From Euglena gracilis (Eukaryota), in NCBI GenBank assembly GCA_039621445.1, contig CP154954.1, positions 23,076,954 to 23,140,953 on the forward strand: 64,000 nt of DNA, given 5' to 3'. The notes below the pieces were generated by a model that saw nothing but the letters and a program-made list of their open reading frames with translations, made no database searches and had not been told where the DNA came from. A program made the position numbers and the translations under genes. Positions 26,299 to 64,000 of the stretch are shown one piece after another; within the stretch, counting starts at the first letter, position 1, and each line of letters starts with the position of its first letter.

Positions 26299-27131
26299 TG
26301 TTCACCGGTTCCGCCACCCCCGGGCTGCCGGTCGCCCCCGCGACCGCCAAGTCCCTTTGGGCCAAGGGCCCCGGGGGGTCCTCGCCGGTGGGGAGGACAC
26401 CGACAGGGGGGGTGGTGTTTCCGGGGTGGGGCCTGCGCTTTTTCCGGGGGTTGGTGGGCTCAAGTCAACCCCCTTTTTTTCACCCAGGTGGTTTCCCCAA
26501 CCCCAGCCGGTGCGTAGGATCGTTTTTTGAACGGTTTCCGAAGATTTCGTGAAAACTGAAAAATCTGCCATTTTGCTTGCAAATCTCACTTCTCTCTCTC
26601 TCTCTCACCCACTCACTCTCTTGCACACCTTGAAGGTAAAAACCAACCCACTGAAACTTGAAACTCTTGAAGTCAAAACAGAAAGAAACTTGAATTCTGA
26701 AACTCCGAGACTTGAGTGAGAACACACTTGAAACCGAAAACTGTGAAATGTGAATGTATGGAATGTGCAAACCTTGGGGCAAGGAGTGGTAGGTGATGGA
26801 GGCGAAGGCGGTGGTATAGAGGAGTGGGCGGTGGTGTTAAAGGCTCCTTCAAGGCAATGACTTCAATAGATCAATGACCAACAATGAAACTCAACTTGCC
26901 ACTTCAATTGAAAGTCCAATTGAAAAATTCAATACAATAGTATTCCTTCTTGCCAAACATTGGGGAAAACCCCTCAAGTTCTGTGAAAAAAAAAAACTCG
27001 AAGGCGCTTAGAAATTTGACCCGCTTCCAATTTAAGTCGCGGGTTTCTCTAACTGATTGGCTGTTACCCGCGACTTTGTAATTTGCGCCTTCTGGCAATT
27101 TTTGGCTGCCGGCGCAAGCCGGCGGCCGACA
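26299..27131 (-). repeat. B1 3' LTR (833 bp)
   Basis: Near-identical to 38936-39318 + 40342-40751; minus strand reads TGTCGGCCG...GGTGAACA. Confidence 0.95.
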
Positions 27132-29589: not shown

Positions 29590-32500
29590 TTATGGCCACC
29601 CATCAATTTTTAGTTCGGACATTACGTCCACTTTCACTTTTTTCTCACGACAATATTTCACAAACTCTTCACTGAATCTGTGAATGAAATTTCCAGCCGG
29701 TTCCCAGGTTTCCTCCCCGTCCTCATATCCGACCCACTTTGTAAAAAATTCCCATTTTCCATCTTTTCTTTTCTGATGCCTTAATATTTTTTCCACCTCC
29801 CACTCCTCAGGTAATGCCTCTTCTTCTTTTTCGGTCCGTTTATAGTAAAAAAGAGGCACCCCCTTACCTTCAACTTGGGGTTCCCGATATTCCTTCAAAA
29901 AACTCCTATGAGCTTTTGTCTCTACCCCAGGTTTCATTTCGATTACATAACTTCGTTCCCCCTCTCTACCCTTCACGACCCCAGGTCCTACCCACCTAGA
30001 GTCAAGCTTCTCACCCGACCCCTCGGGTCTCCTATACCAAACCGTCGTCCCCACCTTTAGGGGTTCCATTTCTTTCCTCCCGTTATTTATCCTTGCCACC
30101 TCCTCCTCATGCTTTTTGTTGAGTATCCTAGCCACCCTCCCATCAATGTCTTGCATCCTTCGGAAAAACTCCACCTAATCCTCACATTCTTTGGGTGGTT
30201 GGCAGGGTACCCCTGCCAATGGTCTTTCCCTTCCAGTCACAATTTAAAATGGGCTCAATCCGCTTTCCCCCTTTACGTCATGAATTCGGTCCAAAACTTG
30301 GGGTAAAGCCTCAACCCAATTAATTTTTTCCTCCACGTACAATTTTCTCAACACCTCCATTACCTGTTGTCCGGCTCTCTCAACCCTCCCGTTTGCTTGG
30401 CGGTGGTATGCTTGGGAATATGCTTGCCTAATCCCCAAAAGTGCACACATGTTTTTCCACCAAGTGCTTGTGAAATGGCTCCCTTGGTCACTTGAGATGA
30501 CCGAGGGAACCCCAAAAGCCTCCACTGATTTTTTACCATTTCCTTAGCCAACTTGGCACCGGTTAATCCCTTGTCCTTGCATGCAACCCCACAATCCAAC
30601 CCGAATGCCTATCCACACAAAGGGCCAGGGTGTCGTACTCCCCCCCATCGTGTAAAACCCTTGGCATTCGAAACAAATCGATGGCAACACTTGTCATTAG
30701 TGCAGGGGGTATGGGTGTGGACTCGATCGGTCCTTTCAAACTCTCCCCCCTCACACTCGCTTGGCATGTGGAACAATTTTTGCTGCAATTTTGGTTGAGT
30801 TGTTTTGCAGCCTTTTCATCAGCCCAAACAAAACGGATTGCCATGTGTTTCCAAACTGTTTCAGGGCCAACGTGCCCCAAAAACTCGTGATTTTCTTGAA
30901 TCACCAAGGGTTGGAAACTTTCAGGCACACACAACTTTTCCTCGAAAAACAGTTGACCGTTCAAGACTTTATAGCTTTTGGGCCAAACTGAACCACCTTT
31001 GGTAGCCTCCCATTTTTCTTTCCACGTGGGGCATCGGGAATATGCTTCCCCTTAATCACGCTCCCATACGGGCTTAGTATCCTTAGGGGTCGTACTTGGC
31101 AGGGCGTCCCCCACTTCCATACGAGTGTCCCCCCTCGAACTTTCAGCCGTCTCCGGGACAGGGGTCGTCTCCCCCCCCACTTTCTCATCCCAAAAATGAA
31201 CTCGTTTCTTTTCTTTCCTGGGCCCTTGTGAGTGGGTGTCCACAGGGGTGTCTTTTCCTCCTGGGTCTACCCCACCCTCGGTTCCCCTCCTTGTGCACTC
31301 TCCTTTTTCCTCCTCAGGTGTTACGTTTTAGCCACTACGGGTTGTCACCCCCCGTATCCAGGCATTACGTAAATTGGGCTGGTTTTTGATTCTTATCTCC
31401 AAACACTATTTTTCCTCTTCTTTTTCCTCCCGGATAAAATTTTCCATTTCATCCTTGTCTTCGGCTGACCCATGCTTACTTATATCTCTTAGGGCCTGTG
31501 AAGCTGGGTATGCCCACCGACTAAGGATATCGGCTATGGTATTTTCTTTACTCGGGATATATCCCACCGTCAAATCATACTTGGAGAAAATTTGATGCCA
31601 TCTCGCCCTCCTCCCAACCGGACCACTGTGGGTGTCTAGGACCTCCCTTGTCCAAGACTCCAAAGTTTGGGGGTCGGTTAAAACCAAAACGGGTTGCAAT
31701 CCAATCCAACTCTCCCATTTTTGTAGTGCCAAAATTATGGCGTACGTCTCCAACTCCCGGGCCCTCGGTCAATTTTCGAGACATAAAAGCCACTGGCACA
31801 GTTTTTTTCTCAATCACATCGTGGGCTGTGGGTCTTCCTCCCTCCTTCATGTGCTCTAACGTTGCCCCCACGGCGTACCCACTAGCATCAACCCTTAGCA
31901 GAAAGGGTTTATCTGGGTCTACCCGTTGCAACATCAGGCCCGAACACAACCTTTCTTTCAGCTCCTCAAAAGCTTTTAAATCCTCCCCATCAAATTCCAC
32001 AGGTTTTCGACTTCCTTTCTTTCCCACCTCCCTGGGGACTTTCAATTTGTCTTGCAGCCGGGCAGCTACTTCCGCATACATGTGAATGTATGCATTGTAA
32101 TAATTTCTGAATCCCAAAAAGGCTCTCAAAGCCGTAATTTTTTTTGGAACCTCCCACTTTTCGATCGCTCGTAACTTACCCGGTGCAGGCCTCCTAGTCC
32201 CGTTTCCTAAAATTTGTCCACAAAATTCGACCTCCTCAACGAAAAGTTTGGCTTTGAATTCATCAGCCACCAATAATTCTGTTTTGAGCACTTCCAACAC
32301 CCTCCTCAAATCTTTTTCATGTGCCCCCACTAGATCCTCCCCTTCCCCGACCGTTGTCCCCACCAGTTAGTCGTCTATGTACCCTGTGGCGATATCCCTT
32401 ACTGGTGTCAAACGGTCATCGATCATTTGCTGAAACTGCTGGGGGGCATTTGTCAAACCCATTACGTTCACCCTCCATTGAAAAATGCCTTTGGGGGTAA

Positions 32501-33640: not shown

Positions 33641-33759
33641 GTCTGTCCTTACCAAGTTTCTTCGATCCTCCCCGAGTTTTCGTCCCCCTCAACATTCTTT
33701 TTTTCAGCCGCACCAATTTTTTCTTCCCTGGGGCTCCCCCCCCCCTGGGAGGGTTGCCT

Positions 33760-34160
33760 TCTATCGATCAAAAAGGCCCACACCCTCCAATGGGTACCCC
33801 TCAAAATCCTCCCATCAGCCTCAAACAACTTTTTCCCCTTGGGAAAATAAATCTTTTTGACAGCCATAGCCACCAGATTTTTCACCCACCTCCTATTCCA
33901 ATCTGGGCAAATGCAAATCGCCCGACAATTGGAATTTTGCAATTTTTCAGCCACCTCAGGCCATAAAGTCCGGGGGGGATTCATCCACAACGTTTCCTCC
34001 GCCCCCCAATCCTTTTTCATGGCATCATCATCCTCCCCGTAAAACTTTTCACACCTGGCATTTTGGCTGGTTGCAAAACAACCCCGTTCCGCCTTAACCC
34101 GAAATTCCTTCTCAATTTCCTCCATACAAACTGTCCTAACAGCATAATCCTCCCTACGAT
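33760..34160 (-). CDS. B1 Dam-like amino-methyltransferase domain (6mA or 4mC type)
   Basis: REDYAV...GCFATSQNARC..FY...DAMKKDW...LWMNPP(R)...AICICPDW..RW, the motif order of the phage/DIRS Dam-like domain; within ORF 33649-35019. Confidence 0.8.
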
Positions 34161-34179
34161 ATCCGCTTTTTCGTTCCAA

Positions 34180-34775
34180 CACGGTTAACAAAAACTCCAC
34201 CAGTTGTTTGGGCATCCTCCATTTTTTCTGAGCACCAACTGTCATTCCATATCCTCCCAACTTTTCTCGGTGACTCCTCTCCACAGGAATCAAATTCGGA
34301 CAGGTCTGGCCATCACAAAGTTTGTTTTGTAGCTTGCTCAGATTTTCGCTCCCCCAGATTCGGGTGGGCTTTTGATATACCCAATCTGAAAACTGACAAT
34401 AGTCAACATCGACAAAAGTCAGATTTTGAACACAAGGTCTTTTCCGCAAAAGTCCATGACGGGGATATCCAATCCACCACAATTTTGGCTTGAAATATTC
34501 GACAATCTCCAAAGTTTTTTTGACCAGCCGATCTGCCCCCTCCAGATTTCTGACTCCCAATGTTTTCGCCAAGCTATATTCTGTACAGGGCACCCCCGCA
34601 GCGATGATCTGAAAATATCCGGGGGGGTACCTCAAATATCTCCACTCCAAAATATTTGCACAGTGGGTTGGGTTAAATCTGGGGTTTATGTCCACTGACA
34701 CAACCTTAAACCCCTGCTCTCTCAGGCAATCCCCAACCGAGCCTTTACCGCAAAAAAGGTCTAAAGCTCTTTTCT
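34180..34775 (-). CDS. B1 C5-cytosine DNA methyltransferase domain
   Basis: Motif I ALDLFCGKGS, II VSVDI, IV AGVPCTEYS (catalytic PC), VI WWIGYPR (ENP in B2), VIII YQKPTRIWG; within ORF 33649-35019. Confidence 0.88.
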
Positions 34776-37700
34776 TTAGGGAAGGCTGTGCACGACCTCT
34801 TATGAGCTCTGGTTTTTTACAGATTTGGGCTGAATCACAGACTTGCACGTCACGCACGCTCACACCCGACACACTGGACACACCTTGCGCTGATATCTCC
34901 TCGGATGGCAGATTTTTCGTCGTGGTTTCACTCGCACGAGATTTCTCATGCCACCTGGGATTTGTGTATGTCTTTGTGTGGGGCTGGGTATGCGAGCCAG
35001 GGGCGGCTCCCGCCCCCAACGGTCCACCCCGGCTGTCCTAGCCTCGGTTTCCTTTCCCCCTCCCTTTGCCTTTGCCTTTTCCACCATCCTGGCCCTTTCC
35101 CCTAGACCAGTCACTTCCATTGTTTCCTTTCCCCCAAGAATTGTTTCCTTTGCCCTTGCCTTTGCCTTTGCCTTTGCCACCACCAGACTGTGAATCAAAA
35201 TTCTGTTGATTTGAGTGCCACCACTGATTTCCCTGAAAATTGGCATTGGCATTGGAATTCCACCCAGAATTGTTTCTCCATCCCCCCCAATGGTCAAATT
35301 GGGACTGCTGGGGGGGGGTGGCAATGACTGCGATCGAACCACTGGCACTGGATTTTGCACGGGGGGGTTCACGTTTGCATTAGTCGCAGGAGCTGCCACC
35401 TGTGAATCTGATTTTCCAACGAACGGTTTTGCCACCGTTTCGCCCCCCTTTGCTGACCGTGTTGGGGAGGGTGTCCTGGACCCCTTGGCCCGATCTGCCT
35501 TAGCAGACCTGGCCCTCCGGTTTCCAAATACATTTGGCTCTTTGGAACTGTGTATCATGTCTTGAGAATCCCTGGAAGACAATTTTCGCTCAACAAAACA
35601 GAAAATTTCTGCAGCTCCCATTTTTGGCTGTTCCTCCACAATTTTGATCCTTTTATCCGTGCCTGTGATTGGTTTCCCACTGACCTCTTTCAGTTTGTCG
35701 CAAATCGTAGTGTTGGGCAAAAAGACTTCGAACTCCAGCGGTGAAACTTTCGAAACCTTGCAGGGCTTTTCCCCAGTGACACGTTCCACGGCACAAATAA
35801 TGTTTCCTCAGTTGCTGGCACTCCAGGGTACATTTTGACTTTTGGTCCACACGTTGATTTTCTTTCCTCCTCATCGGCGACCCAATGCAAAATGAACTTT
35901 GGCAATTTCCCCTTGACCAGTCTTTCTGCCTCATCGTCAGTGGCGCCTTTCACCTGTCTCCAGGCTATTCTGAAATTTATGACAAAGTCTCGCCATTCCC
36001 GTACGGTAATTTTACCTTGGTTGACGAGGTTCACGTCATACCATTTTTTCCTGGCACACTCGGACTGAGTTCCAGCATATTTCCCTTCAAGCCTGTCAAA
36101 TTCCTCCTCGAAAGATGTTTTTCCGTTCAATTCCGTTCGGAATTGTAATTCCTTTTTATTTGTGTCGTCCAGCGTCATTGCAAAAAGCTGAAGCTTGAGT
36201 GAATCAGACACATGTCCATTTTGCAAAATAACCACCGTCCTGAAATATTGATCCCAATCCCGCACAAAGGACGACCAGTCTTTTGGCTGTCCAGAAAAAT
36301 TTGGAGCTACCAGGTTTTTCATCAATTGATGCGTTGCCACTGCATTTGATCAAACCAGCCCTGAACCTGCAGGCACTGCCCCCACAGGTCGTGCACAAAC
36401 CTGCCTGACATGGTCGCATGTGACCCTGGTTCAGCGTATTCATAGCCTTCAATTTCAACCGGATTTTTCTCGATCACAGGTAAATCGTTGTAACCAAAAA
36501 GATCAAACCCTTCGATTTCTGGGTTTCCTGCTAATTTTTCTCTCGTTTCCTTTGTCAGATCCACTGTCGCAGATTTGGCAGATTCAGCTTGCTGATTTTT
36601 CATCACCAAAAACTCAGCCTGAAATAAATCCAGCTTTTGTTGCGATTTTTTCCGTTCCTGCTGTTCTTTTCGAAGTTCAACGCACTGCTGTTGCAGTAAA
36701 ACTCCAACCTGCTGTTTCATCGAATTTTCCAATTCAGCCCGAACTTTTTCAAACTGCCCCTCCCTTTCACTCAGCCTCAACCTTTCCTGCAATATTTCAC
36801 TGATAATGACTTCCAAATTCCTTCTCGCTTGCAGCCCCAACTCCCTTTGCACCTCCAACCGAATTGCTTCCTCGCTCTTGTTAATCAGGTCACAGACTTT
36901 TTCAATGGGAAAATCTTTCCGACCCAGAAAATTCTCCAACCTCCCCAAACGATCATTCAGAGCTTTGCTCTCTCGCTCCAGGGACTGTGAACATTCCTTC
37001 AATTTCTCAGCCTGTGCCTGAAAATTGGCACACTCAGTCTCCCCCAAACCTTTGCATTGCTGAAAAATGATCCCGAAGCGTCCCTCCAGACCAGAGCTTA
37101 GCTCACCGACTGCAGGTTCGACCTGATTAACAGAAATTTCCTGCTGTTTTCCCTTCTCACCCACTTGTTGCACCACCACGTGCATCTCCCCCACAGCTTT
37201 TTCCAAAAACGACAGCTTCTGAGAAAAATCCCTCTCATTTTTTCTCAACCCCTCAACCTGGGCCTCAAAAAACGTGTTTACTCCATCCTCCACTTTCGTA
37301 ACTTTTTCAGCAAACTGCCGTTCCATTTCCACACTCAACAAATGCCTTTGGCATTGGGCCAGATTTTGCACCATTTCACCATTTTGCTGAAACTGCAAAA
37401 GCAAGTCGTTCACAGTTGCACTCAGTTCAGCCTGAATGTCACGTTTCACCATTGCAATGTGATCAGCCATTCGCTGATCATGCATGACCAATGCCTCATT
37501 GACCAGATTCAATGTCTGCCCCTGTGACATGGCCAATGCCCGATTTAGCCCGTTTTCTGCCTCCCCCACCAGATTTTCAGCCGTTTTTTCACGATTTTTT
37601 CCTTCCTGCACCAAAAGCCTGCCACGTAAACATTCAATTTTGCAACTGATTTCTTCACCCCAAATGTTCCATTCATCATCAGATTGGCCATAGCCCGATT

Positions 37701-40198: not shown

Positions 40199-40271
40199 GG
40201 CAGGACCTGGGTCTCGAACCCACGACCTCCCGCGTGTGAGCCCAGCACCTTACCGAATAAGCTACTCGAGC
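40199..40271 (-). promoter_or_regulatory. tRNA-derived Pol III promoter-like segment in TRIM 5' LTR
   Basis: TAGCTTATTCGG (A box)...ctCACac...GGTTCGAGACC (matches GGTTCGANNCC); T-arm tggg/ccca pairs, acceptor and anticodon stems are broken. Confidence 0.65.
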
Positions 40272-48689: not shown

Positions 48690-51600
48690 CATGGGGGTGC
48701 ACGGGAACGGGGCCCCCTGGTGGGAGGGGGGATCCCGAGCTGGGGAGTCCTTGCGGGTCGACACGCGGGGGCGGCGACCCCTACCCGTGTGGGGCAGGGA
48801 GTCTGAGGTACGCCTGGACTGCGGGGTGGGTACGCGTGTGACATGGGGAATGATGGGGTGGTGGATGGTGAGGCAGGGGCAATCGAAGCGCGGGAGAGCG
48901 CATCCCTCGCAGACGCGGATCGCACGGAGGCGCGGCGCTCGCCGCTCGCGGGCTGCCGGTGGACCCTGACCGGGTACCTGGGGTGGGCCGCGTGTTGGGG
49001 ACCCGCCGGGCCAGCGTCTCCTCCTTCTTCTTGGTCTCGATCTCCTTCGTCTCCTCCATCACCTTCATCATCGTCTCCAGAATCATCACCTTCTCGACAT
49101 ACATCTCCGTCCTCGGTGTCCTGCCACGTCCACTCCTCTGGTGGCTCCGCCCAGGACAGCCCAATCTCCTTCTCCTTCTCCTTCTCCTTCTCGATCTCCA
49201 CGGCGTGGCAGATGGCGACATGGGCTTCCTCCGGGAACCTCGAGAGGTACTTCATGATGTCCTCCTTGATGTCCTGTTCGCCGAAGTACGACAGGATCGG
49301 GGAGGCGTACCGGTGGAAGAAGTGCCGCAGCGGCTCCCACGTCTTCTCCTCATACCGCAGCCAGTTGACCAGTAACTCGAGGTCGCCGTTGGCATCGAGC
49401 CTGTGGGTGACCACCGCCTCCACCTCCCACTCGTCCAGCCGGGAACCCTCGTCCGGGCTGGACTGGCGGAAGGGGATGAGGCGGAGCGGTGGCCGCATCA
49501 GCGCTGGATCGTGGCGGTAGCTCTTGATTTGGGATCGGTGGGCAACCTGCTTCCGGCCATCCTCCATCTGGAGCAGGTAGATGTGCTCACTGGTGCGCTC
49601 TGCCACCACGCACGGCCCGATCCAGTACGTCTCCAGCTTCTCGCCGGTGCGGGTGCGCGGGCGGAGGTACCAGACCTTGTCGTTGATCTGCAGCGCCGGC
49701 AGCTGCTTCCTCCGCTTGTTGACCGTCTCGGCTGTCTTGGCGTGCTCCTCGTTCAAGGTCTTCGCGACACGATGATCGATGTCCTGCATGCGCTCGAAGA
49801 AGCACCGCGTCCTCGGCCCGCGTGGGCGGCTTGTATGGCACCCCGCTATACCACCGCTCGCGGCCGAAGAGCACCTGGAAGGGGCTCAGGCCGCTGGGCC
49901 CAGCACTGTCGTGCAGGGTCCGCAGGGCCCGCGGCAGCGCCTCTGGCAACGCCATGCCCTCCGCCGCCTTCATCTTCCTCAGCCGCTTCTGGATCTGCGC
50001 GCCGAGGATCTCCGCACGGGCGTTGCCTTCGTGGTGGTATGCTTGCGAGAAGGCATGGCGCACCCCCAGTCTTGCGCACATTGCCCTCCCCCAGGCCCCC
50101 ACGAAGTGGGGGCTCCGGTCCGACGTCATGACGCTTGGCACGCCGAACTGCGCCCACTCTGCTCATTCATCGCCTTCGCCACCGCCTCCGCCGTTAGCCC
50201 GCTGGTGTGGTGCACGGTCGCGATCGCCCAGCCGGAGTGCCGATCGATGCATGCGGCAAGCACATTCACCAGCCTGCCGCCCTCCACCTCCACCTAAGTA
50301 ATCTGGAACAGATCCACGCTCACCGAACACGTCACATGGGGCGGCACTGGCGTGGGCGTGATGCGGAGCCGGACGGGTTGGTGGGGGTGCTCTGATGCCT
50401 GGCAGAACTCACACACAGCCAGAATCTTTCCTGCCACCTCGCGTGCTCGGGAGGGCACCGCAAACTGGAAGTTCCGCCTGGCCTCATCGAGGAGGCGGTC
50501 ACCACCGACGTGCGTCGACGCCCGGTGCTGCTCTCGGATTGCCTGCTCGGTCAGGGCATCCGGCACGCACCAGACGGAATCCTTCACCAGCTTGCCTGCG
50601 TCCTTTCGGTAGCCGGTGGGCCATGGCCTGCCGCGCTTGATGGCCTGCCACGGCTCTTTGAACGTTGGGCACTTCTCATACGCCTCACTGCAGTCCATCG
50701 CCATCAAGTCCTGGTCCTCGTCTTGCGGGGCTGCGGCCGGGGTGGCTGCAGCTGGCGGCACAGCGGCTGCCACAGGCGGCACGGCGGCTGACACTGGCGG
50801 CACGGCAGGAGGGCTGGGGTGCACCCCCACCTTGGGTGGGCCGGCCGACGGCACCGCTCCCTCGGCTGGATTCTTCGGGACGATGGCACCGGGTGGCCTG
50901 GCGGCCGCCTGGCTTCGGGCGGTCACGGCGATTGCTGCGGACGGTGGTGGGATGCTGCGTGCGCTAGCAGCGGGCGGGGACGATGCTTGCTCGGCGGACG
51001 TGGATCGCACGGCGGGTGCTGCTTCCGGTGCCGCTGCTGGCCGTACGGAAAACCGCACGTTGCGTGGTATGGCGGGCTGCTGCTGCTGCTTGGGAGGCTT
51101 CGCGGACAACGCTGGGTGCTGCGGCTCCTCGGGCTGCCTTGGCGATGCCAGCGCTGTCGCACTGGGCGCTCGCACGGTCGGTGCTGCAGTCGCAGCCGGC
51201 GCGGTGGGGTTCGGTGGGGGCGGCGGTCGGATTGCCGGACTTCCGGCTGCTGGAATCCCGGCGGGCGCCGCGTCGGATGCCGGTGTCCCGGCCGATGCCG
51301 CCGTGGCTGCCGGTGTCCTGGCTGGCGGCGATGGGATGCCGCGTTTGCGGTTGGGAGGGGGCACACCTTGTCCGCCGGGTGTACTGCCTTCGGGCAGTTG
51401 CGCTCCGCGGCCTTCTCCTCTCGGATCTGCTGCTCCATCTCCTCGGCGTCCGCTGCCGTCCCGTGGCAGCAGGAGTCTCGGTACTCCTGGGCGGCCGGGT
51501 ACGCCCACCGTGACAGCGCGTCCCCCACCTCGTTCTTCTCCCCCGGCACGTACACCACCTCCACCTTGTGCTCGTTCAGCTTCGAGTGCCACCTCGCCCG

Positions 51601-53428
51601 CCGGCCTTGCGGTCCCGATCCCCGGAGACGTGCTCCTTGTACCAGCTCTCCAGGGACCGGTGGTCCGTCAGGACCAGGACCTTCCGCCCGGTGATGTGGC
51701 CGCCCCACTTGTCCAGCGCGCTCACCACCGCGTACGTTTTCTTGTTGCGCGTGTGCCACCGCAGCCGCTGCCCCTCGGTCAGCTTCTGCTCATGAAACCC
51801 ACCGCCACCGTCGCCCCGGGCTTCAGGAGCTCCACCACCGAGGGGATGACCTCCACCTTCGGTAGCTGCTCCAGCACGGCGCCCACGGCATAGTCGGAGG
51901 CGTCTGTGTGTAACACGAACGGCTTGTTCATGTCCACGTGCCACAGCTCCATGTCCGCCAGCAGCGCTGCCTTCAGCTTCTCGAACGCCTCCAGCTCGGC
52001 CGCGGACCACCCGATGGGGTGCTTACTGCCCGCCCGTGACAAATCCCGCGGCAGCTTCAGCTTCTCCTGCAGGGGGGAGGCCAGCTCCGAGTACATACGT
52101 ACATACCCCGAATAATAATTGCAGAGGCCCGGAAAGGCGCGCAAACTCGTCACTTTGGCTGGGCGTTGCCACCGCTGCACCGCCGCCACCTTGCCGCTCG
52201 CGGGCACACGCTTGCCCTCCCCCAGCACGGGCCCCACGAACTCCGCCCTGTTGCGGAACAGCTGCGCCTTCTTCTTATCCGCCACCCACCGATCCGCCTC
52301 CAGCCCCCGCAGGGTCTCGCGCAGATCCGCCGCGTGCCGCCGGATCAGCTCCTCGTCGTTCCACCCCGGCTGCCGCCTCGTGCTCACCAGGATGTCGTCG
52401 AAGTAGGGGTGGTTGTGGGCGGAGACGTTGCGGCAGGTCGCGTCGATATCCCTCTGGAGCAGCGCCGGACCAACGTTGATGCCCTGGGGCACCACGGTCC
52501 ACTGCCAGCGGCCGCCGGGCAGGTGGACGTTGGTGATGGGTCGGCTTTCCTCCGCCATGGCCACCTGGAGGAAGACGTCCCGCAGGACCACCATCGAGAA
52601 GATCTCGCACTTCGCTTGCTCGCTCACGATGTCCTCCGTCAGCGGTGGGGGCACCTGCAGCACCTTGTTGGTCAAGCTGTAGTCGCACACCAGCCTCTAC
52701 TTGCCCGACTTCTTGCGGATGGTGGAGGCGGCCGCCCTCCACGGCACCCGCCCCGCCTCCAGCTTGCCGTCCGCCAGGCAGTCCCGCTCTCAGGGCCTCC
52801 AACCGCTCGCCCTTGAGGTTGATGATCCGGCCCACCACCGGTGTTGCCCCCGGTTTCAGCCTCAGCACCGCCTTCCCAATGGTGCCCCGCGCCGGGGGAC
52901 ACGGCCACACCCGCTCACCGAACACCAGGCCTTCGAACTCGTTGATGATCTCGTCCCGCAGCTGCCGCGCCAAAGGATGGTCGACGTCGTCTTCTGTATC
53001 CACCACCCCTCGCACCGCCTTCGCCGCTTCTTCGGCCTCCTTTAGCATCATCGCCACTTCTCGGACTGCTGTTTCGTCCATGTCAGCTGCCGCATCTTCC
53101 TCACCGTGGAGAGGTGGCCGTCCAGCTCGTTTTCGTCTTCATCGCCATCTTCCTCCTTCTTCTCTTCGTCTCCACGCCGCCTCAGGATCCACTTGGGGTC
53201 CGCGTGGAGCTGCAAGGTGTCGCTACACGGCTGCACATCCATCTGGTTCTCCCGGAGCCACGGATACCCCAGAATGAGGTCCGTACTCGTACTGATGCAG
53301 CCGTCATACGCCACCACCTTCGTCGTCCACGTCCTCGGTCTCCGCTCCTCGTCGTCGGTCTGGGCCGCGAATGACAGCTTCAGCTCTGCTTCTCGTTGTC
53401 CTCTGGGTAGCGCCTCTCCACTCACCGT
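48690..53428 (-). pseudogene. GC-rich gypsy pol (protease C-half, RT, RNase H, Pro/Ala linker, integrase, chromodomain)
   Basis: DLILGYPWL; PYFDDILV; LHTDASDYAVGAVLEQ; HRASTHVG...CEFC; TSDRSPHF; GNARAE; YWIGPC; EWEVEAVVTH...VNW..YEEKTWEP. Confidence 0.93.
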
Positions 53429-56569: not shown

Positions 56570-59500
56570 TGGTACGCAGAGGAGTTATTGCCAACCCTGT
56601 TGACCAAAAAATTTTCAGCCCAGAAAATACGGACAATTTTCATGGCGCAGCCAGCAGTAATCTTGCTAAAGCTTTAAACATGATTACAGTGGTAAATTCT
56701 GCTGGTCATACCAAAAGAATCTGTGGATATTTGGGAAGCTTTGACCCTCAGCTAAACATGGTTAGGCAAGGCAGCTTCACCAACTCTGTCGGTGAAGAAT
56801 TTTTAAAATCGGCAAACCTGAATTTTTCTGAATCTGTGGAAATCAGCAATTTTCAATCAAAGTCTGGTTCTGATACGTGTTCAGAAATTTTGAACGCAGA
56901 CTTTTCAGGTTGGAACCCAGAAAACGTGTTTGGAGTTAACATGATAACGGCCAGTCCCCATGAATCACAGGGGGGGGGATGATAATCAGTTGGTGCAATG
57001 GACGGGTTCACCCCCCAGTATCAAAGCGACAGTGAAATTGACAGTGACAGGGGGTCGGGACCCAGCCAGTTTGACGAAACAGAACAAATTTTGGTGGCTG
57101 CAGGTTGGATACCCCCCAGGTTTCAGATTTTCAGTCCAAATCAGTTTTCAAATTTTGCAGCCGAAATACCACAGATTGAGGGGGTAACTCCAATTTTATT
57201 GTTGGAAGACAGGGGGATTCTCAGCCACAGCGAAATAACTGCTGATGGGCAGACATCTTTTTCGGAATCGACCAGCATAGCATGTGTTCAGAATCAAATT
57301 TTTCTGGGGTGCAATCTGCAGATCTGGGTTGTGGTGCATCATCATCGGGGTGTTAAATCTGGCAGCATCAAAAACCCAGGTGGAGGAGGACGAAGAAATG
57401 GATCCCCAGCCACCTGATTTAGGAGTTCAGGTGGGGGGGCATACTTTTCAGAGTGGGACGCATGGGATAATTGGGCCCAGGGCGTGGAATGCCAATTAGC
57501 AGAACTGAACCGAAGTTTAACTTACTGGGAAAGCATTATACCCCCCCAGGTGATTGTGGAAAATCGGCTGGAAACTTTTGGGCGAGAATTGGGGGAAAAA
57601 ATTCTCGAGCTCAAGCCCAACTTTTACATTTTTTTGAGGAAAATGTGGAACGGCGAAATGCTGAAATTAGCAGCCAGTTTGAAGAGCAAAAACAGAAAAG
57701 TCAGCAGGCAATTAAGCAGGCAGTCAGTCAATTTATTTCACAGTGCCAGCAAGGGGGGAATGCGGTGGAAAATATTGCAAACTGCCACAAACAACTTTTG
57801 TCAATCGAAGTTGAAAGACAGGTTGAAGGAAAATCCCAGATTTTTGAGAAATATGTGAAGGACTTTTTGGATGGGCAGTTGAGCGACATTTCAAAAAGGG
57901 AGAAGGAAATTGAAGTCAGATTTTCAGGACTTTTTGACCAGGTTGGGATTTGTTCTCGGGCTGTGGGAGAGAACAAATTGGAGTTGTAAAAATAAATTTC
58001 TGCACTTCAGAATGCAAACCGTGAGCTGTTCTCTGGGGTGAATTGACGCTTCACTGAAATTGCTGCTGGGCTGAAAACTGTTGGGGAGGAGTCTAAGACA
58101 AACTTTGAGACACTAGTAAGTGAAATGCAGCTGCAATTTCAGACAGTGAATCAGGAGAGCAAAGCTCTGGGGGACAGATTCACTGGGATCGAGAAATTTC
58201 TGGGCAGCCAGTTGGTGCCTTGGGACAAAGTTGTTGAAATGATGGGGAAAACAGAAGAAACGATTCAAATTCAGGTTCGGAGGGAAATGGCAGCTCATGT
58301 CAGAAAAATGATGGAAATCATGTTGACCCAAACGATGGAGTAAAAAATGAGACAAGTGCAAAAAGAAGAACATTTTGACAAGCTGCGAAGTGACATGGAA
58401 AATTGTATGAAACAGCAGTTTTGTGCGTTTTGGGCAAAATTCAAACAGATTTTTCAAAGGAAAAAAGCCATAGGGAGGTTGTCCAAAATGTGTGCAACAG
58501 TTTTGTGGCACGGTTGAAGGCCATTGAAGGGAGGGTGCAACAAGTTTTGACTAAAACGGTCCAGCCCAAGTCATCTACGGTGACACAGCCCAAGCCAGTT
58601 TTTAAGGCTAATTCTGGTTTTGTTGGAATTAAGGGAGTGAAGTCGGTTCAGCCAATTGAAATCTGGGAGCTTAATCTGGGTTAGAACGGGGCCCAGATTT
58701 AGGGGATGGATCATTAATGGTGGGCCAGGTGAGTATCAATGCCATAGGGGGGGCATCTGAACGGTCAGCAATGATGACTGTGGCGTCTGCAGCTAGACAA
58801 CAGATTTTGCGAAATGCGGTTGTCCCGAAATTTTCAGGTCATGCAGGTGATTGGCCAAACTTCAAGGATGAGTGTGGGAGATTCAATCGAAAATTCAATC
58901 AAATTTCAGAAGCTGATAAATTGGGCCTCCTGGAACTCTGTTTGGATGACTTGGGGAAAAAACAGCTGAATTTGCACTTGGATGAAATGGGGGAGGCACT
59001 TACTTTTAATGAATTGTCGGCCAAGTTGGATGCCTGGCATTCGAGAAATGAAGAGTTCGGGGCCAGAAAAAAACTTTCCGGATCTTACATTATGCCATCA
59101 AGGGAGGGTTACAAGTCGTGATTGGGAAAATTTCAAGGTTGACTTCCAGTTGTGTCGACAGAAAATTAGTGAGGGGGAGGTGAAAATAATACTCATCGAA
59201 AAAATGTCTCACTTTATTGTGCATTGGATCACCGACCAGGAAGAACGGATAAAAACCAGCCAACCAACCGTTCGAATGAACTATCCACAACCAATCACCA
59301 CAGTAATTATGGAAAATTTTGTGATGATTTTCACTGGGAAGAAACCCACAAGAGTCACCAAATTGAGTGAGTCGGAATTCGAAATTGTGTTGCCTGATAT
59401 GCAAAGTTGTGAAACACTCAAAAGTTACAATGGGAAATAATTTAATGATTCCAATGTTTTGGTTCGGGTTCGAGAAAATGAACCAAATTTGAGTTTTGAA

Positions 59501-60127
59501 GACATTTTCCGTCTCGTGACTTCAAAATTGGCACTCAGAGATCGGCAAGACTTAGTGCTAAACCCCGCCCACAGCCAAACCTCATACAGACGTTCTCGAT
59601 CGGTGGGGCGGAGGTCAAAGGGGGGACATCCAACAGTCGGGAGGGTTCTTCCTCAAAAGAAACGTTCTTTTTCTGGAAAGCAGGTGACATCTACGACACC
59701 TTCAACACCCAAGTCCACAGGTTCGGCCTTGCCCAATGCTTCGAATGGTCCTGTTCCCATTTCCACTGAAAGTCAGAACCAAAATCTTACACAAAATGCA
59801 GAACTTCCAAAGTCTGTGCCAAATACCAATGGCGGAGTTTGGGTTCAAGCACCACCAAGATCGTCTCCTTGGCCAACTTGGCAACAGCAAAATCAAAACC
59901 AAAACTCTTGGAAAGGCCAAAGTTTCAAGGGTGCTCAAAATTATCAAGGCCAAGGACGATATGGGGGAAGGGGGTCCAGCCAATCGAATGGAAATTGGAA
60001 TCAACTGTCTTCCCAAAAAGGCAAGGACAAAGGCAAAGGCCAAGAAAAAGATTCTTCCAAAGGCAACGGTTGGAAGGGAGGGGGGTACAATTCAAACCAA
60101 AATGTTTCGCCCCAAGTCCGTCTTTAG
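56569..60127 (+). pseudogene. B2 gag-like ORF (decayed)
   Basis: MVRRGV...; coiled coil with NIANCHKQLLSIEVERQ (B1 NLAQCQRHLLSVEMERQ); VPKFSGHAGDWPNF; GRVTSRDWENF; GKG-rich tail. Confidence 0.8.
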
Positions 60128-60544
60128 GGACACCGGGGTCATGGTTTTGAGGGGTTTACATCCTCGGGTATCAAAACCCCCAAACTATTTTGCATGCCAC
60201 ATCTGCATATGGACAATATTCCCATGTTGGAGAATGTGTGTCTATCTTCCAGTCCGTCTATCTCAGGTTCAAAGTCAACCAATCAAGAGAATGCAATGCC
60301 GAAGACAGGCAATGGTGTAACTGAAGACAATTCAATGAATTCATCATCAACGATTGACTCAAGAAGGCAAGTGGCCTCGAACCAATGGCAGCCCGTGTCG
60401 AGGAGGGGCAAGCCGGGCAAACCGTGGGCTCGACCCAAACCGTGGAGCAGGTGTGCAAGCCAGGAGAGTGCACGGCCCAGGCTCATCAATTATTATGGTT
60501 GTTTGAGTGGAAGAGGGTCCATCAAAGGTGTGGAAGGCAAGAGA

Positions 60545-61145
60545 ATTCCCAAGGCGTTGGATTTGTTTTCGGGAAAAGGATCTGTGGGGAGGTCTTTGGA
60601 GGAAAACTACCAGGTGGTATCTTTGGATGTCAACAGAATTTCACCCAACACATGTAACGGATATTTTGGAATGGGATTATCGCAAATACCCCCAGGGATA
60701 TTTTGAAGTTATTGCGGCCGGTGTGCCATGCACGGAGTATAGCCTTGCAAAAACGATAGGGGGTAGGGACATGCAAACGGCAGATCGCCTTGTTGAAAAA
60801 ACTTTGGAGATTGTGGAATATTTTCAACCCAAGTTGTGGTGGATGGAAAATCCCCGTACGGGATATTTACCCAAACAGCAATTTGTTCGAAATTTGAATG
60901 TCCTCGATGTTGATTATTGCCAATTTTCTGATTAGGGATACCAAAAACCAACCCGTATTTGGGGGAGTGAGAATGTCTTAAGTTTGAAGGACAAAATTTG
61001 TGATGGAAAAACCTGCCCCAACATGGTGTTGAAGGAGGGGGGCAGGTGGGCACACAAGGAGCATTTGGGTGGGAGGCACATGCACACGAGCACACATCAA
61101 AAATGGGGAATGCCTCAAAATTTGATTGAATATCTTCTTTCGGAC
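60545..61145 (+). pseudogene. B2 C5-cytosine DNA methyltransferase domain
   Basis: ALDLFSGKGS, VSLDV, DILEWDY, AGVPCTEYS, WWMENPRTG, VDYCQFSD*GYQKPTRIWG; one frameshift (~60640) and one stop (60933-60935). Confidence 0.88.
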
Positions 61146-61177
61146 CTTGATTTTAAGGAGGAGAAATTTCCCTTCAA

Positions 61178-61572
61178 AAGGGAGGACTATGCCGTGAGAA
61201 ACCCTTCTCTGAAAATGATTCAGGAGAAATTTCAAAGGAGAGCCGAAATGGATTGTTTTGCTTCAATCAAAAATTCTCAATGTGCATCTTTTTTGACAAA
61301 GGAAGAAAATGCCTTGAGTGTTGACTGGGGAAAGGGGGCGGACGGTGTGGTTGAATCCCCCATGGTCGTTATGGCATAAGGTGGCAAAAAAGTTACAAAA
61401 AACCCCGTGTGATGCAATTTGCATTGTTCCCGATTGGCAAAGGGGATGGGTGTGAGAACTCGTGCGAAAGGCGACATAAAAATTATATTTTCAGCCTGGA
61501 ACAAAGCTTTTCGAAGTGGATGGGAAACCCATGGGAGGTGTGAAGTGGGGAGTTTGGGCCTTGTTGATAGAG
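61178..61572 (+). pseudogene. B2 Dam-like amino-methyltransferase domain
   Basis: REDYAV...MDCFASIKNSQC..F...NALSVDW, then (frameshift) VWLNPPWSLW...AICIVPDW; canonical NPPW at ~61354-61365. Confidence 0.82.
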
Positions 61573-61689
61573 GGTGATAAGCCCCCCACTAGCACTAACA
61601 CGTCTAAGGAACCAAAGGTTGTGCGTTTGAAGGCGCGTATGGTGAAAAAAATGTAGTCACCCACAGGGGTTAGCAAGTTTTCCAGGGAT

Positions 61690-64000
61690 CGGCAACTTTT
61701 GATTCGCACAAAAGTAATTTTGGTCAGTGGGGAGGAACGGGATATGTATATTTTGGTAGATACGGGGGCGGAAGCAAACCTCATAAGGCAAGGATTTGTA
61801 AGAGATCACCCAATGCACTCGGCTGAAAATACCCTTAAATTCGAAACGGCTAATGGCCAAGTTTTAAGTGGGGGGACAAGGTGCACTAAGGTGAGAATGA
61901 AGTGGCTTGGGGAGGAGAATAATGGGACACCACCCGAATTTTTTGAGTATGAAGTGGAATTTTACGAAGCAAACATAAAAATGGATGCCATTTTGTCATT
62001 TCTGTGGCTTGCCCAAGCAAAACTTGGAATTTTTCCACATCACAGAGCTTTGGTTTTGGAAACCCCCGAGCTGACATTTTGTTTGGTGTGCGTGATTTCA
62101 GAAAACGGCGACACTCAAACACTTCAAAAAATTTGCCCCAAGAGGGGGGCACGGCCCATTTGCACAAATTCGGTTTCGAACTACCTTTGAGTGGGTTTGA
62201 TCAAAGAAGTCGCTTTTTAGATGACCGAACCCTGAATTTTTTGCACAAAAATTTGAACGTGTCCGAAGCAACCCTCCAATCCATCCGACGGATGATAATT
62301 GCAAGGGAGGGGGGGGATGCAAAAAATGAAGAGGAGGAAGATGAGGATGAAGGCAAGTTAAGGCTATTAAGGGAGGAAATTCAACAAAAGTATGAAGGAA
62401 CGGTTTTTAGGTTAACGGTATACCCGGACCCACCCGTAAGGGGACCCTATGGGTATGCTTTTATACCTTTGAAGGAAGGAGCAACACCAACTTGACAAAA
62501 ACCATTCTTCATGCACGGGGAGGGAAAAGAAGCTTTGGAAAAAATCACTCAAGATTGGATCGATATGAAATTCATAGAGCCAGCCACAACAAAAAATTCG
62601 GAATGGCTCTCACAAACTTTCCCTGTGCCCAAAAAGTCTCCCGATTTTCCTTGGAGGGGGGTTGTTGACATGAGGGGACCCAATAGCCAAACCCGTAGGT
62701 GCAACTACCCTCTTCCGAAAATTGAAGATATCCTGGTGAAGCATGGTGGCAACCAAATGTTCTCCATTTTGGACTTAAAACAAGCATTCCACCAACAACA
62801 GCTTCACCCGGATAGCCGGCCAATAACTTGCTCCTTCACACCAAAGGGTCTCTACCAATGGAGGGTCAATGTAATGGGGTTAACTAACGCCTCACAACAA
62901 TTTCAACAAATGATGGACGAGAGGCTAGCACCCGTAAGGGACATAGCAACCCCATACATAGATGATATTTTGGTAGGGACAACCGTTGGGGAGGGGGAAG
63001 ACCTCCTAGAGGCACACAAACGGGATTTGTGCCGAGTTTTGGATTTGTTGGCCAAATAATTTTTTGTGGTGGACCCCAAAAAAGCAAAATTGCTCATCAA
63101 AAAAGTGGAGTTTTGTGGCCAAATTTTGGGTCATGGTGCCCGATGGCCAGCACCGGGCAAACTTCGTGCCATTGAGAAATGGGAGGTTCCCACAACCATT
63201 ACCGCTTTAAGAGCTTTCCTTGGTTTTACCAACTACTACAACGCATACATCCATATGTATGCTCAAATTGCTACACCGTTGCAAGACAAATTGAAGGTGC
63301 CTAGGGATGTTGGTAAAAAGGGAAGCAAGAAAAGAGTTGAATTTGGGGAAGGGGATCTCCAAGCGTTTGAGGAGTTGCAGAAGCGTCTGTGTTCGGGCTT
63401 AATCACACAACGTGTAGACCCCGATAAACCCTTTGTATTAAGGGTAGATGCAAGTGAGTGCGCCGTGGGGGCTACACTAGAACAACTAAAGGAAGGAAAT
63501 GGTAAGCCCACACCCCAGGATGTGATGGATAAGAAAACGGTGCGTATTACCTTCATGTCCCGAAAACTTACCGTGGGGCCAAGGAAATGGACCCCTTGTG
63601 AGTTGGAGACTTATGCCATAATTTTGGCTCTCCAAAAATGGGAAAGTTAGATCGGTCTTCAACCCGTTTTGATGTTAACTGACCACCAAAGTTTGTGGGC
63701 ATGGTCAAAAGAGGTGCTCGATACCCCCAGTGGTCCGGTGGGTAGGAGGGCACGATGGCACCAGATTTTTTCAAAATATGATTTGACGGTGGGGTACATA
63801 CCGGGTAAAGAAAACACAATTGCCGACATTTTGAGTCGGTGGGCTTACCCGGCCTCACGAGCATTAAGGGACGTAAGCAAACACGGTTCAACCGAGTATA
63901 AGGAAGAAATGGAGGAACTCATAAGAGAGGAAAGGGAAGACGAAAGAAATTGTTTGTGGATTAGAGTGAAAAATCAGCCCAACAACCGTAACACGTGGGT
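61690..64000 (+). pseudogene. B2 pol: protease, RT, RNase H
   Basis: LVDTGAEANL; LDLKQAFHQ...MGLTNASQQFQ...PYIDDILV; LRVDASECAVGA; ELETYAIILAL. Confidence 0.95.

What the first reader, a model, noticed from the sequence alone, without database searches (positions are those of the whole stretch)
60545..61700. A second, diverged family keeps the same dual-MTase cassette, in frame with protease
Seen: B2 has a different LTR and a much-diverged gag, yet both MTase domains sit at the same position. B2 retains the catalytic residues that B1 has lost (ENP vs GYP; NPPW vs NPPR), so the two copies complement each other to a fully canonical consensus. From 61501 the Dam C-terminus reads in frame into the protease (…WGVWALLIEG…RDRQLLIRTK…VDTG) apart from one TAG at 61654-61656. 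Inference: the MTases are a conserved part of the polyprotein under purifying selection, likely released by the protease inside the particle.
Basis: partly seen in the sequence, partly recalled or inferred. Interest (0 to 1): 0.85.

Follow-up and report, generated by a model that had tools for sequence, protein, structure and literature searches.

The report
Retrotransposon carrying two DNA methyltransferases
This is a decayed copy of a jumping gene of the retrovirus-like kind whose replication protein begins with two DNA-marking enzymes, one for cytosine and one for adenine; such elements were first described in a 2026 preprint, so it is a further example and not a new kind.

Summary
B2 (+ strand, about 57.6 kb to the window end) and B1 (- strand, 27.1-38.9 kb) are two diverged Ty3/gypsy-type LTR retrotransposons. 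Both carry a compact C5 cytosine methyltransferase and then a Dam-like adenine methyltransferase directly upstream of the protease. B2 keeps ENP and NPPW; B1 has GYP and NPPR. Relatives show that B1's states are private defects.

The methyltransferases are under purifying selection. Synonymous sites are saturated. Non-synonymous divergence of the DNMT (0.29) equals that of protease (0.27), and Dam (0.44) lies well below gag (0.65).

TAG 61654-61656 is not a recoding site. B1 and 4 of 4 metagenomic relatives that span this linker read a sense codon there. B2's pol carries 7 in-frame stops and 3 frameshifts in all.

The conserved boundary lies elsewhere. A single in-frame TAG ends gag (60125-60127 in B2, 35038-35040 in B1), and 4 metagenomic relatives also have a single in-frame stop upstream (TAG in two, TGA in two). 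The methyltransferases are therefore the N-terminal part of Pol.

Elements with DAM, DNMT and a chromodomain ('EpiLTRs') were described in a May 2026 preprint. The position before protease, the gag stop, the shuffled module order in relatives and the phage-type DNMT are additions I did not find in print.

The parts
57609..60124 (+). B2 gag (broken by stops and frameshifts), ending in a Gly/Lys/Asn-rich tail
   Evidence: Colinear tblastx matches to B1 gag at 26-37% amino-acid identity. No Pfam family.
60125..60127 (+). In-frame TAG that ends gag; the same frame continues into the DNMT. Candidate read-through site.
   Evidence: ORFs 59441-60127 and 60128-60706 share one frame. B1 has the same arrangement at 35038-35040(-). 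By eye's letters, 13 of the first 15 bases from the TAG match between B1 and B2 if one 1-base indel is allowed. L001, L002, L003 and L005 also have one in-frame stop with an open frame upstream.
60128..60550 (+). 141-codon leader of Pol with no recognisable family
   Evidence: Open in the gag frame; not alignable to B1 beyond the first codons.
60551..61157 (+). Compact C5 cytosine DNA methyltransferase domain of about 205 aa. Motif I is at 60551 onward, PC at 60726-60731 and ENP at 60847-60855. It is broken by a frameshift near 60605-60627 and by TAG 60933-60935.
   Evidence: PF00145 at E 3e-7. 63% amino-acid identity to B1. An AF2 model of relative P0003 matches the DNMT3A/3B, DNMT1 and M.HhaI catalytic domains at E about 1e-8.
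61158..61584 (+). Dam-like N6-adenine DNA methyltransferase domain. NPPW is at 61354-61365. It is broken by a frameshift near 61331-61342 and by TGA 61453 and TAA 61477.
   Evidence: PF05869 at E 9e-7, above the cut-off. 46% amino-acid identity to B1.
61585..61734 (+). Dam-protease linker holding TAG 61654-61656, a stop not conserved in the family
   Evidence: B1 in its homologous frame, and P0002, P0004, P0005 and P0013, read sense codons here.
61735..62079 (+). Aspartic protease (DTG at 61759-61767)
   Evidence: PF13975 at E 4e-5 (24.5 bits, below the 28.2 cut-off). 61% identity to B1's protease.
62367..63998 (+). Reverse transcriptase and RNase H, running off the window end; stops at 62493, 63057 and 63648
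   Evidence: PF00078 at E 8e-16 and PF17919 at E 4e-17. 79% identity to B1. Stops listed.
33748..34782 (-). B1 DNMT plus Dam, inside open frame 33652-35037; GYP at 34462-34470 and NPPR at 33970-33981
29593..30174 (-). B1 C-terminal chromodomain after the integrase
   Evidence: PF00385 at E 5e-10.
26299..27131 (-). B1 3' LTR. Its partner, the 5' LTR, is 38936-40751 and carries an internal duplication.
   Evidence: Direct-repeat families D8 and D10-D13 at 94-98% identity.

Best explanation
B2 is a dead copy of a very high-copy Ty3/gypsy-type (chromovirus-like) LTR retrotransposon family. Its Pol polyprotein begins with two DNA methyltransferases: a compact C5 cytosine methyltransferase of about 205 aa, whose nearest non-transposon relatives sit on phage-like contigs, and then a truncated Dam-like N6-adenine methyltransferase. 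Protease, RT and RNase H follow, and in B1 also integrase and a chromodomain.

Shown: the domain order; the continuity of the frame from the methyltransferases into protease in intact relatives; conservation of the catalytic motifs; amino-acid conservation as strong as that of protease; and a single in-frame TAG between gag and the methyltransferases in both window copies, with a single in-frame stop (TAG or TGA) in four metagenomic relatives.

Inferred: the gag TAG is read through at low frequency. The methyltransferases would then be made only as part of Gag-Pol, enter the virus-like particle through the Gag moiety and be cut free by the element's protease. There they would act on the newly reverse-transcribed DNA, or on the RNA:DNA intermediate, so that the new copy arrives already carrying 5mC and/or 6mA.

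TAG 61654-61656 is one of 7 in-frame stops in this copy's pol, which also has 3 frameshifts. It has no recoding role.
For: Domains and order.

One uninterrupted frame in relatives: P0002, P0004, P0005 and P0013 read DNMT-Dam-protease. P0129 reads DNMT-RT-RNaseH-rve-Chromo.

Motifs: PC in 34 of 34 sequences and ENP in 31 of 35. In one search, NPPW is read in 7 of the 35 rows (B2 is not a row), NPPF, NPPC and NPPG in one each, and NPPR in B1 only; most other rows lack a Dam aligned there.

dN between B1 and B2: DNMT 0.29, protease 0.27, Dam 0.44, RT-RNaseH 0.13, gag 0.65, protease-RT linker 0.70. Third codon positions differ at 52-63%.

dN in metagenomic pairs: L004/L005 give DNMT 0.231 and protease 0.226 (dS about 2.7). 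L002/L006 give DNMT 0.345, protease 0.425 and RT 0.328.

Gag stop: B2 60125-60127, B1 35038-35040 and L002 3768 are all TAG followed by G in the pol frame. L001 (TAG), L003 (TGA) and L005 (TGA) each have one in-frame stop, and the upstream frame stays open to the contig end for 91, 213 and 148 codons. B1 and B2 keep a nearly identical stretch directly after the TAG although the flanking proteins do not align (one search's letters; the MAFFT alignment marks only part of it).

Other copies in the genome: in run X1, 909 contigs lie on 60100-62200 and cover all 30 bins. At B2's stops 60933, 61453 and 61477, nearly all the depth reads another letter, which gives a sense codon.

Fold: the AF2 model of P0003 has pLDDT above 90 over the DNMT domain and matches DNMT3A/3B, DNMT1 and M.HhaI at E about 1e-8.
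Against: Read-through is not shown. Folding 100 nt from the stop gives z = -0.79 for B2 and +0.05 for B1 against shuffles; only L002 stands out, at z = -3.48. No pseudoknot search was possible.

dS is saturated, so no numeric dN/dS exists for DNMT, protease or RT. The alignments are ungapped tblastx segments, which favour conserved stretches.

Both window copies are dead, so nothing here shows current activity. RNA contigs lie on the stretch (X16), but DNA carry-over is not excluded.

The 2026 preprint reports that eukaryotic transposon DAMs expressed in E. coli did not raise 6mA (Results).

L006 has gag and protease in different frames, and L004 has too little upstream sequence to test.
Confidence: 0.75

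Rival explanations
1. TAG 61654-61656 is a programmed read-through or termination site that sets the methyltransferases apart from protease-RT as a separate translation unit.
For: It is the only stop between 61483 and the protease in that frame. No differing letter at 61654-61656 appears among the 40 rows shown by read laying, with 110 rows not shown, so sharing by B2's closest sister copies is not excluded.
Against: B1 reads a sense codon at the homologous place in its true frame. P0002, P0004, P0005 and P0013, 4 of the 4 relatives that span the linker, read straight through. B2 has six other in-frame stops in pol. Three of them were checked and are read as sense codons in nearly all other copies.
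Confidence: 0.04
2. The methyltransferase domains are neutral passengers or decaying relics with no role in the element's life cycle.
For: B1 has lost both catalytic motifs and B2 is broken in both domains. The heterologous DAM assays in the preprint were negative.
Against: The DNMT's dN equals that of protease in two pairs and is lower in a third. PC is present in 34 of 34 and ENP in 31 of 35. At 50% clustering, 222 representatives match at E<=1e-30 and 1431 at E<=1e-10. The module is kept in at least five different arrangements around the protease.
Confidence: 0.05
3. The architecture is as described, but Pol (methyltransferases included) is not made by read-through of the gag TAG. It comes from another route, such as a spliced or subgenomic RNA, reinitiation or an internal start, and the enzymes may act outside the particle on host chromatin or on RNA.
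For: B1 and B2 show no structure beyond shuffled controls downstream of the stop. The stop is TGA followed by A in L003 and L005, which differs from the TAG-G context.
Against: Gag and pol share one frame with exactly one stop between them in 6 of the 7 elements that could be tested. B1 and B2 keep nearly the same bases just after the stop where the proteins do not align. L002 is strongly structured there.
Confidence: 0.15
4. The cassette is an artefact: a nested insertion of another element, or an assembly chimera.
For: The window is a nest of retrotransposon fragments. The preprint raises nested insertions as a worry for one host.
Against: The same order and junctions occur in two copies that differ at 36-40% of the bases in these domains, and in independent metagenome contigs as single open frames.
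Confidence: 0.01

Closest known systems
'EpiLTRs': LTR retrotransposons with DAM, DNMT and a chromodomain, reported for Euglena gracilis and Cymbomonas tetramitiformis (bioRxiv 10.64898/2026.05.21.726589; I read the abstract, all of Results and the Discussion; supplements are closed)
   Same: A Ty3/gypsy-type LTR element that encodes a Dam-family adenine methyltransferase, a C5 cytosine methyltransferase and (in B1) a chromodomain. The Dam is truncated but keeps the Asn-Pro-Pro-aromatic pocket. Copy number is high.
   Different: In the preprint's text, the Cymbomonas form has the DNMT at the 3' end of pol, and the order in the Euglena form is not given. The words 'protease', 'gag' and 'readthrough' occur 0 times in its main text. 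Here both enzymes sit between the gag stop and the protease. The preprint places its DNMT as sister to DNMT4. I could not compare sequences; here the nearest non-transposon relatives are phage-borne methyltransferases of about 205-260 aa. The host of this window is not known to me.
DNMT-encoding retrotransposons of Symbiodinium (SymbioLINE-DNMT, SymbioDIRS-DNMT3) and of Klebsormidium (de Mendoza et al. 2018, PMC5890265; I read the abstract and matched passages only)
   Same: A retrotransposon-encoded C5 DNMT present in many copies, with the proposal that new cDNA copies are methylated.
   Different: Those belong to other element classes (LINE, DIRS) or carry a DNMT3-type enzyme. They have no Dam in the same element and are not placed upstream of a protease.
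DIRS retrotransposons with a Dam-like methyltransferase
   Same: The same Pfam family, PF05869. According to the preprint, the LTR-element DAMs derive from DIRS DAMs.
   Different: DIRS elements use a tyrosine recombinase and lack a protease and a DDE integrase. This element has DTG protease, an rve integrase and a chromodomain.
Gammaretrovirus-type gag-UAG-pol read-through (murine leukaemia virus; recalled, not tested against any reference here)
   Same: Gag and pol share one frame and are separated by a single UAG followed by G. In L002 a purine-rich spacer is followed by strongly structured RNA.
   Different: No pseudoknot is shown. B1 and B2 fold no better than shuffles. Two relatives use UGA followed by A.

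Membership tests
Ty3/gypsy (chromovirus-like) LTR retrotransposon | Pol order protease - RT - RNase H - integrase, with the integrase after the RT | tested here: met
   B2 has protease, RT and RNase H in order and then runs off the window. B1 has protease, RT, RNase H, the integrase zinc-binding domain (PF17921), rve and Chromo in order.
Ty3/gypsy (chromovirus-like) LTR retrotransposon | Flanking long terminal repeats | tested here: inconclusive
   B1 meets it: 26299-27131 and 38936-40751 are 94-98% identical. B2's 3' end lies outside the window, so its LTR cannot be delimited.
Ty3/gypsy (chromovirus-like) LTR retrotransposon | C-terminal chromodomain | tested here: inconclusive
   B1 has PF00385 at E 5e-10. 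B2's integrase end is not in the window.
EpiLTR (2026 preprint) | Dam-family adenine methyltransferase and C5 DNMT encoded in one LTR element | tested here: met
   PF05869 and PF00145 are both above their cut-offs in B2. In B1, Dam is above its cut-off and DNMT below it (15.9 against 22), but B1's DNMT is 63% identical to B2's.
EpiLTR (2026 preprint) | DNMT belongs to the clade the preprint places as sister to DNMT4, and DAM to the eukaryotic DAM clade | not testable with these tools
   The preprint's sequences and supplements are not available to me, and no reference DNMT4 sequence is at hand.
C5 cytosine DNA methyltransferase (PF00145) | Motif I (F-x-G-x-G), motif IV Pro-Cys with the catalytic Cys, motif VI Glu-Asn-x, and the class I methyltransferase fold | tested here: met
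   B2 has DLFSGKG, PCTEYS and ENP. The family keeps them. The fold of relative P0003 matches DNMT3A/3B, DNMT1 and M.HhaI. B1 fails motif VI (GYP). The motif names are recalled from general knowledge of the family.
C5 cytosine DNA methyltransferase (PF00145) | Catalytic activity on DNA cytosine | not testable with these tools
   This needs an enzyme assay or methylome data.
Dam-like N6-adenine methyltransferase (PF05869) | Profile match above the curated cut-off and the (D/N)PP(Y/F/W) pocket | tested here: met
   B2 scores 29.1 bits against 28.1 and has NPPW. Relatives score 31.7-44.9 bits. B1 has NPPR.
Stop-codon read-through gag-pol expression (gammaretrovirus type) | Gag and pol in one frame, separated by a single stop | tested here: met
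   B2, B1, L001, L002, L003 and L005 meet it. L006 does not: its frames differ.
Stop-codon read-through gag-pol expression (gammaretrovirus type) | Downstream stimulatory RNA structure (pseudoknot), and measured read-through | tested here: inconclusive
   z-scores are -0.79 (B2), +0.05 (B1) and -3.48 (L002). No pseudoknot tool was available and no assay was done.

The most novel reading that the evidence does not exclude
Both epigenetic 'writers' of this retrotransposon clade descend from phages. The Dam is already known to be prokaryote- or phage-like. The C5 DNMT would be a separate capture of a compact tailed-phage methyltransferase of about 205 aa (phrog_757 type) and not a derivative of any eukaryotic DNMT.

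The two enzymes behave as free-standing, protease-released cassettes. They have been shuffled into at least five orders around the protease (DNMT-Dam-PR, Dam-PR-DNMT, PR-Dam-DNMT, DNMT-PR and PR-DNMT). They always stay on the Pol side of a read-through gag stop, which doses them at Gag-Pol level inside the particle so that they mark cDNA before integration.

This clade is large and widespread in environmental eukaryotes: 1431 representatives at E<=1e-10 under 50% clustering.
Probability: 0.35. Interest if true: 0.6.

Novelty: new member of a known kind. Interest (0 to 1): 0.45.

Why it matters
Retrotransposons that bring their own DNA-methylation enzymes turn the usual picture around: the host normally uses methylation to silence transposons.

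This window gives two diverged, colinear copies. They fix the place of the two enzymes in the life cycle: on Pol, before the protease and after a single gag stop. Selection has kept them as tightly as the protease.

That makes a concrete model testable. The enzymes would be packaged with Gag-Pol and would mark the cDNA before it integrates.

The links to phage-borne methyltransferases and the shuffled module orders in metagenomes suggest a larger and more modular clade than the two host species named in print. The core idea, dual-methyltransferase LTR elements, is already published as a preprint. The gain here is detail and breadth, not a new principle.

Tried and rejected
Whole-genome census of copies: no genome is held for this window (error).

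Numeric dN/dS. NG86 gives no dS for DNMT, protease or RT-RNaseH, and YN00 fails for every region. All 15 pairs among L001-L006 are saturated too. I report dN and its bounds only.

This stays unresolved.

Expression. RNA-labelled contigs (X16, and X15 by guess) lie on the stretch, but DNA carry-over cannot be excluded and contigs give no expression level. I make no claim.

Rfam scan of the window: 0 matches.

PDB sequence search with the family profile: nothing significant for either methyltransferase. The best hit is a generic SAM-binding motif at E 0.003, and DNMT1 scores E 0.24.

Is the 620-aa N-terminus of P0129 a gag fused without a stop? BLASTP against L002's gag gives no significant match, with a best E of 3.5. 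Undecided.

B2's LTR boundaries could not be set.

One Pfam call failed because a reference I gave contained stops. I repeated it without that reference.

Host identity: run and organism names are coded and I did not pursue them.
Full report
WHAT IS THERE. The window is eukaryotic repeat DNA, and no genome is held for it. It is a nest of Ty3/gypsy-type retrotransposon fragments.

Two elements matter here. B1 lies on the minus strand between LTRs at 26299-27131 and 38936-40751, which are 94-98% identical. B2 lies on the plus strand from about 57.6 kb and runs off the window end. They are colinear from gag to RNase H. At the DNA level, however, only three stretches still align, at 68-72% identity.

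THE OBSERVATION. In B2, Pfam finds a C5 cytosine methylase (PF00145, 30.5 bits, cut-off 22) on 60507-60935. It finds Dam (PF05869, 29.1 bits, cut-off 28.1) on 60936-61379. Aspartic protease, RT and RNase H follow. In B1, one 462-aa open frame (33652-35037, minus strand) holds both methyltransferases.

B2 has ENP (60847-60855) and NPPW (61354-61365). B1 has GYP and NPPR at the matching places. From 61483 the Dam C-terminus runs in one frame into the protease, with TAG 61654-61656 as the only stop.

It is incomplete in one respect. B2's methyltransferase stretch is also broken by stops at 60933, 61453 and 61477 and by two frameshifts. B2's pol as far as the window end has 7 in-frame stops and 3 frameshifts. 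B1 is broken too: the Dam-protease linker is out of frame between two indels, and there are stops at 33003, 32369 and 31408.

IS THE CASSETTE A REAL, SELECTED PART OF THE ELEMENT? A search of the 5.8-billion-protein collection with B1's open frame gave 97 hits. Most come from metagenomes, the best is 69% identical, and many carry both Pfam families.

P0002, P0004, P0005 and P0013 read DNMT-Dam-protease as a single open frame. P0129 (2513 aa) reads DNMT-RT-RNaseH-integrase-chromodomain in one frame. An exhaustive HMMER search with the intact relative P0003 found 3486 cluster representatives at E<=1e-3, 1431 at E<=1e-10 and 222 at E<=1e-30.

In an alignment of 35 members, the Pro-Cys motif is present in 34 of the 34 with letters there. 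ENP occurs in 31 of 35, ETP in 3 and GYP only in B1. In that 35-row alignment NPPW is read in 7 rows (B2 is not among them), NPPF, NPPC and NPPG in one each, and NPPR only in B1; most other rows have no Dam aligned there. B1's two 'lost' motifs are therefore private defects.

Third positions differ at 52-63%. NG86 returns no dS for DNMT, protease or RT, and YN00 fails everywhere.

Non-synonymous divergence is still informative:
- gag 0.65 (482 codons, 32% amino-acid identity)
- DNMT 0.29 (187 codons, 63%)
- Dam 0.44 (149 codons, 46%)
- protease 0.27 (109 codons, 61%)
- protease-RT linker 0.70
- RT-RNase H 0.13 (532 codons, 79%)

With dS of at least 1.3, the lowest estimate anywhere, the ratio is at most about 0.2 for DNMT and about 0.3 for Dam.

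Two pairs of metagenomic elements agree. L004/L005 give DNMT 0.231 and protease 0.226, with dS about 2.7. L002/L006 give DNMT 0.345, protease 0.425 and RT 0.328.

Three caveats apply. The alignments are ungapped tblastx segments. Both window copies are dead, which inflates dN. And the number of pairs is small.

THE TAG AT 61654. Read in its homologous frame, B1 has a sense codon at this place. So do 4 of the 4 metagenomic relatives that span the linker.

Contigs from four public runs were laid on 60100-62200, and 909 contigs of run X1 lie on it, covering all 30 bins. At B2's stops 60933, 61453 and 61477, nearly all the depth reads another letter, which gives a sense codon. The indel sites also vary among copies.

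For 61654-61656 itself no row was shown, and 110 rows were cut. I therefore cannot say whether B2's nearest sister copies share this stop. At family level it is not conserved, and I read it as one more defect.

THE REAL BOUNDARY. In B2 the gag frame (59441-60124) ends at TAG 60125-60127, and the same frame continues for 141 codons into DNMT motif I. In B1 the gag tail (35041-35379) ends at TAG 35038-35040, and the same frame continues into the 462-aa methyltransferase frame.

Read's letters and allowing one 1-base indel, 13 of the first 15 bases from the TAG onward are the same in B1 and B2, although the proteins on either side do not align (the MAFFT alignment marks only part of this).

In L002, a 1255-codon gag frame ends at TAG followed by G, and pol follows in frame. 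L001 (TAG), L003 (TGA) and L005 (TGA) each have one in-frame stop with the upstream frame open to the contig end. L004 has too little upstream sequence, and L006 has gag and protease in different frames.

The methyltransferases thus belong to Pol and not to gag. The arrangement is the one expected for stop-codon read-through. That mechanism is inferred: RNA folding downstream of the stop is no better than shuffles for B2 (z -0.79) and B1 (z +0.05), and stands out only in L002 (z -3.48).

WHAT THE ENZYMES ARE. An AlphaFold2 model of P0003 (mean pLDDT 82.8, above 90 over the DNMT domain) matches the catalytic domains of DNMT3A/3B, DNMT1 and M.HhaI at Foldseek E about 1e-8. By sequence, no solved structure is close.

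The DNMT is unusually small, about 205 aa. Of the 66 metagenomic loci found with the family profile, 6 are retroelements (L001-L006). The other 60 match only the DNMT, at 26-46% identity. I examined 6 of those 60. In each, the match is a free-standing gene of 204-295 aa of PHROG family 757. L016 and L019 also carry tail-fibre genes, L052 a large terminase subunit and L043 a primase fragment.

The ESM Atlas lists as nearest three clusters of 219-288 aa; two carry PF00145 (64% and 46% of members), and their few taxon records are viral, Uroviricota the commonest phylum (score 0.87, a lead only). I infer that the DNMT is of the phage type. The direction of transfer was not tested.

SHUFFLED ORDERS. 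Relatives carry the modules in several orders:
- DNMT-Dam-PR: the window copies, P0002, P0004, P0005, P0013
- Dam-PR-DNMT-RT: L002, P0012
- PR-Dam-DNMT: P0010
- DNMT-PR-RT with no Dam found: L004, L005
- PR-DNMT-RT-RNaseH-integrase-chromodomain: L006, L003

COMPARISON WITH WHAT IS KNOWN. Three literature searches found one directly relevant text, bioRxiv 10.64898/2026.05.21.726589 of May 2026. I read its abstract, Results and Discussion.

It describes DAM-carrying LTR retrotransposons. Within them it describes 'EpiLTRs', which carry DAM, DNMT and a chromodomain, in Euglena gracilis and Cymbomonas tetramitiformis. B1 has all three features; its chromodomain is PF00385 at E 5e-10. B2 has the two enzymes, and its 3' end is missing from the window.

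The preprint's main text does not contain the words protease, gag or readthrough. It gives the DNMT position only for Cymbomonas, at the 3' end of pol. It places its DNMT as sister to DNMT4.

The earlier paper on DNMT-bearing retrotransposons (PMC5890265; abstract and matched passages) concerns LINE, DIRS and DNMT3-type cases.

I therefore file this as a further member of a kind already in print. The added detail comprises the place before the protease, the gag stop, the module shuffling and the phage-type DNMT. I cannot tell whether the window's host is one of the two named species.

MECHANISM. Shown: the anatomy, the continuity of the frame, the conservation and the high copy number. Inferred: read-through of the gag TAG, packaging of the methyltransferases as part of Gag-Pol, release by the protease, and methylation of the nascent cDNA before integration. 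The last step matches the model offered in the preprint's Discussion. The same preprint reports no gain of 6mA when transposon DAMs were expressed in E. coli.

VERDICT. The finding is real. TAG 61654 is not a recoding site, and the conserved stop lies at the gag end. Novelty is modest because of the 2026 preprint.

Noticed in passing
window 13713-14195 (-): A third, more diverged DNMT-like fragment (29-35% identical to the family's DNMT; tblastn E down to 5e-18), with no Dam match beside it. It sits among other retrotransposon fragments, so a third DNMT-bearing lineage may be present in this window.
   Followed up: partly
window 49241-52964 (-): Another chromovirus-like element (RT, RNase H, integrase, chromodomain; 30-51% identical to B1). 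It lies in a 60-73% G+C block, against about 45% for B2. No DNMT or Dam match was found upstream of its RT.
   Followed up: partly
window 46600-47800: Long runs of G or C and degenerate tandem repeats of about 50 bp in a block that reaches 73% G+C.
   Followed up: no
window 27450-28330: About 18 copies of a 48-bp tandem repeat inside B1, between the chromodomain end and the 3' LTR. On the + strand it is open as a proline-rich frame.
   Followed up: no
window 39353-39644 and 40045-40336: A perfect 292-bp duplication 692 bp apart inside B1's 5' LTR. It makes that LTR about 1 kb longer than the 3' LTR.
   Followed up: no
window 60125-60139 and 35040-35026 (-): By my reading's letters, the 15 bases from the gag-terminal TAG onward are nearly identical in B1 and B2 (13 of 15, allowing one 1-base indel), while the flanking protein sequences do not align. 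This suggests a signal at the RNA level.
   Followed up: partly
L002 3768-3867: Downstream of the gag TAG there is a purine-rich spacer and then strongly structured RNA (-41.2 kcal/mol, z -3.48; 1 of 200 shuffles folds as well).
   Followed up: partly
P0012 (protein): A Dam-PR-DNMT-RT protein of this family is filed at NCBI as a hypothetical protein of the plant Genlisea aurea. The preprint reports DAM-LTRs as absent from Streptophyta. It may come from a contaminating protist, or it may be an exception worth checking.
   Followed up: no
window 60100-62200 in run X1: 909 contigs lie on this 2.1-kb stretch at 88% likeness or more, with summed word depths of 10^4 to 10^5. The family is very abundant in that organism.
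   Followed up: partly
window 8070-9143 (-) and 10072-11226 (+): Two RT-bearing fragments lie head to head, with an RNase H fragment (9252-10142, -) between them. They are nested or rearranged gypsy-type elements unrelated to the methyltransferase families.
   Followed up: no
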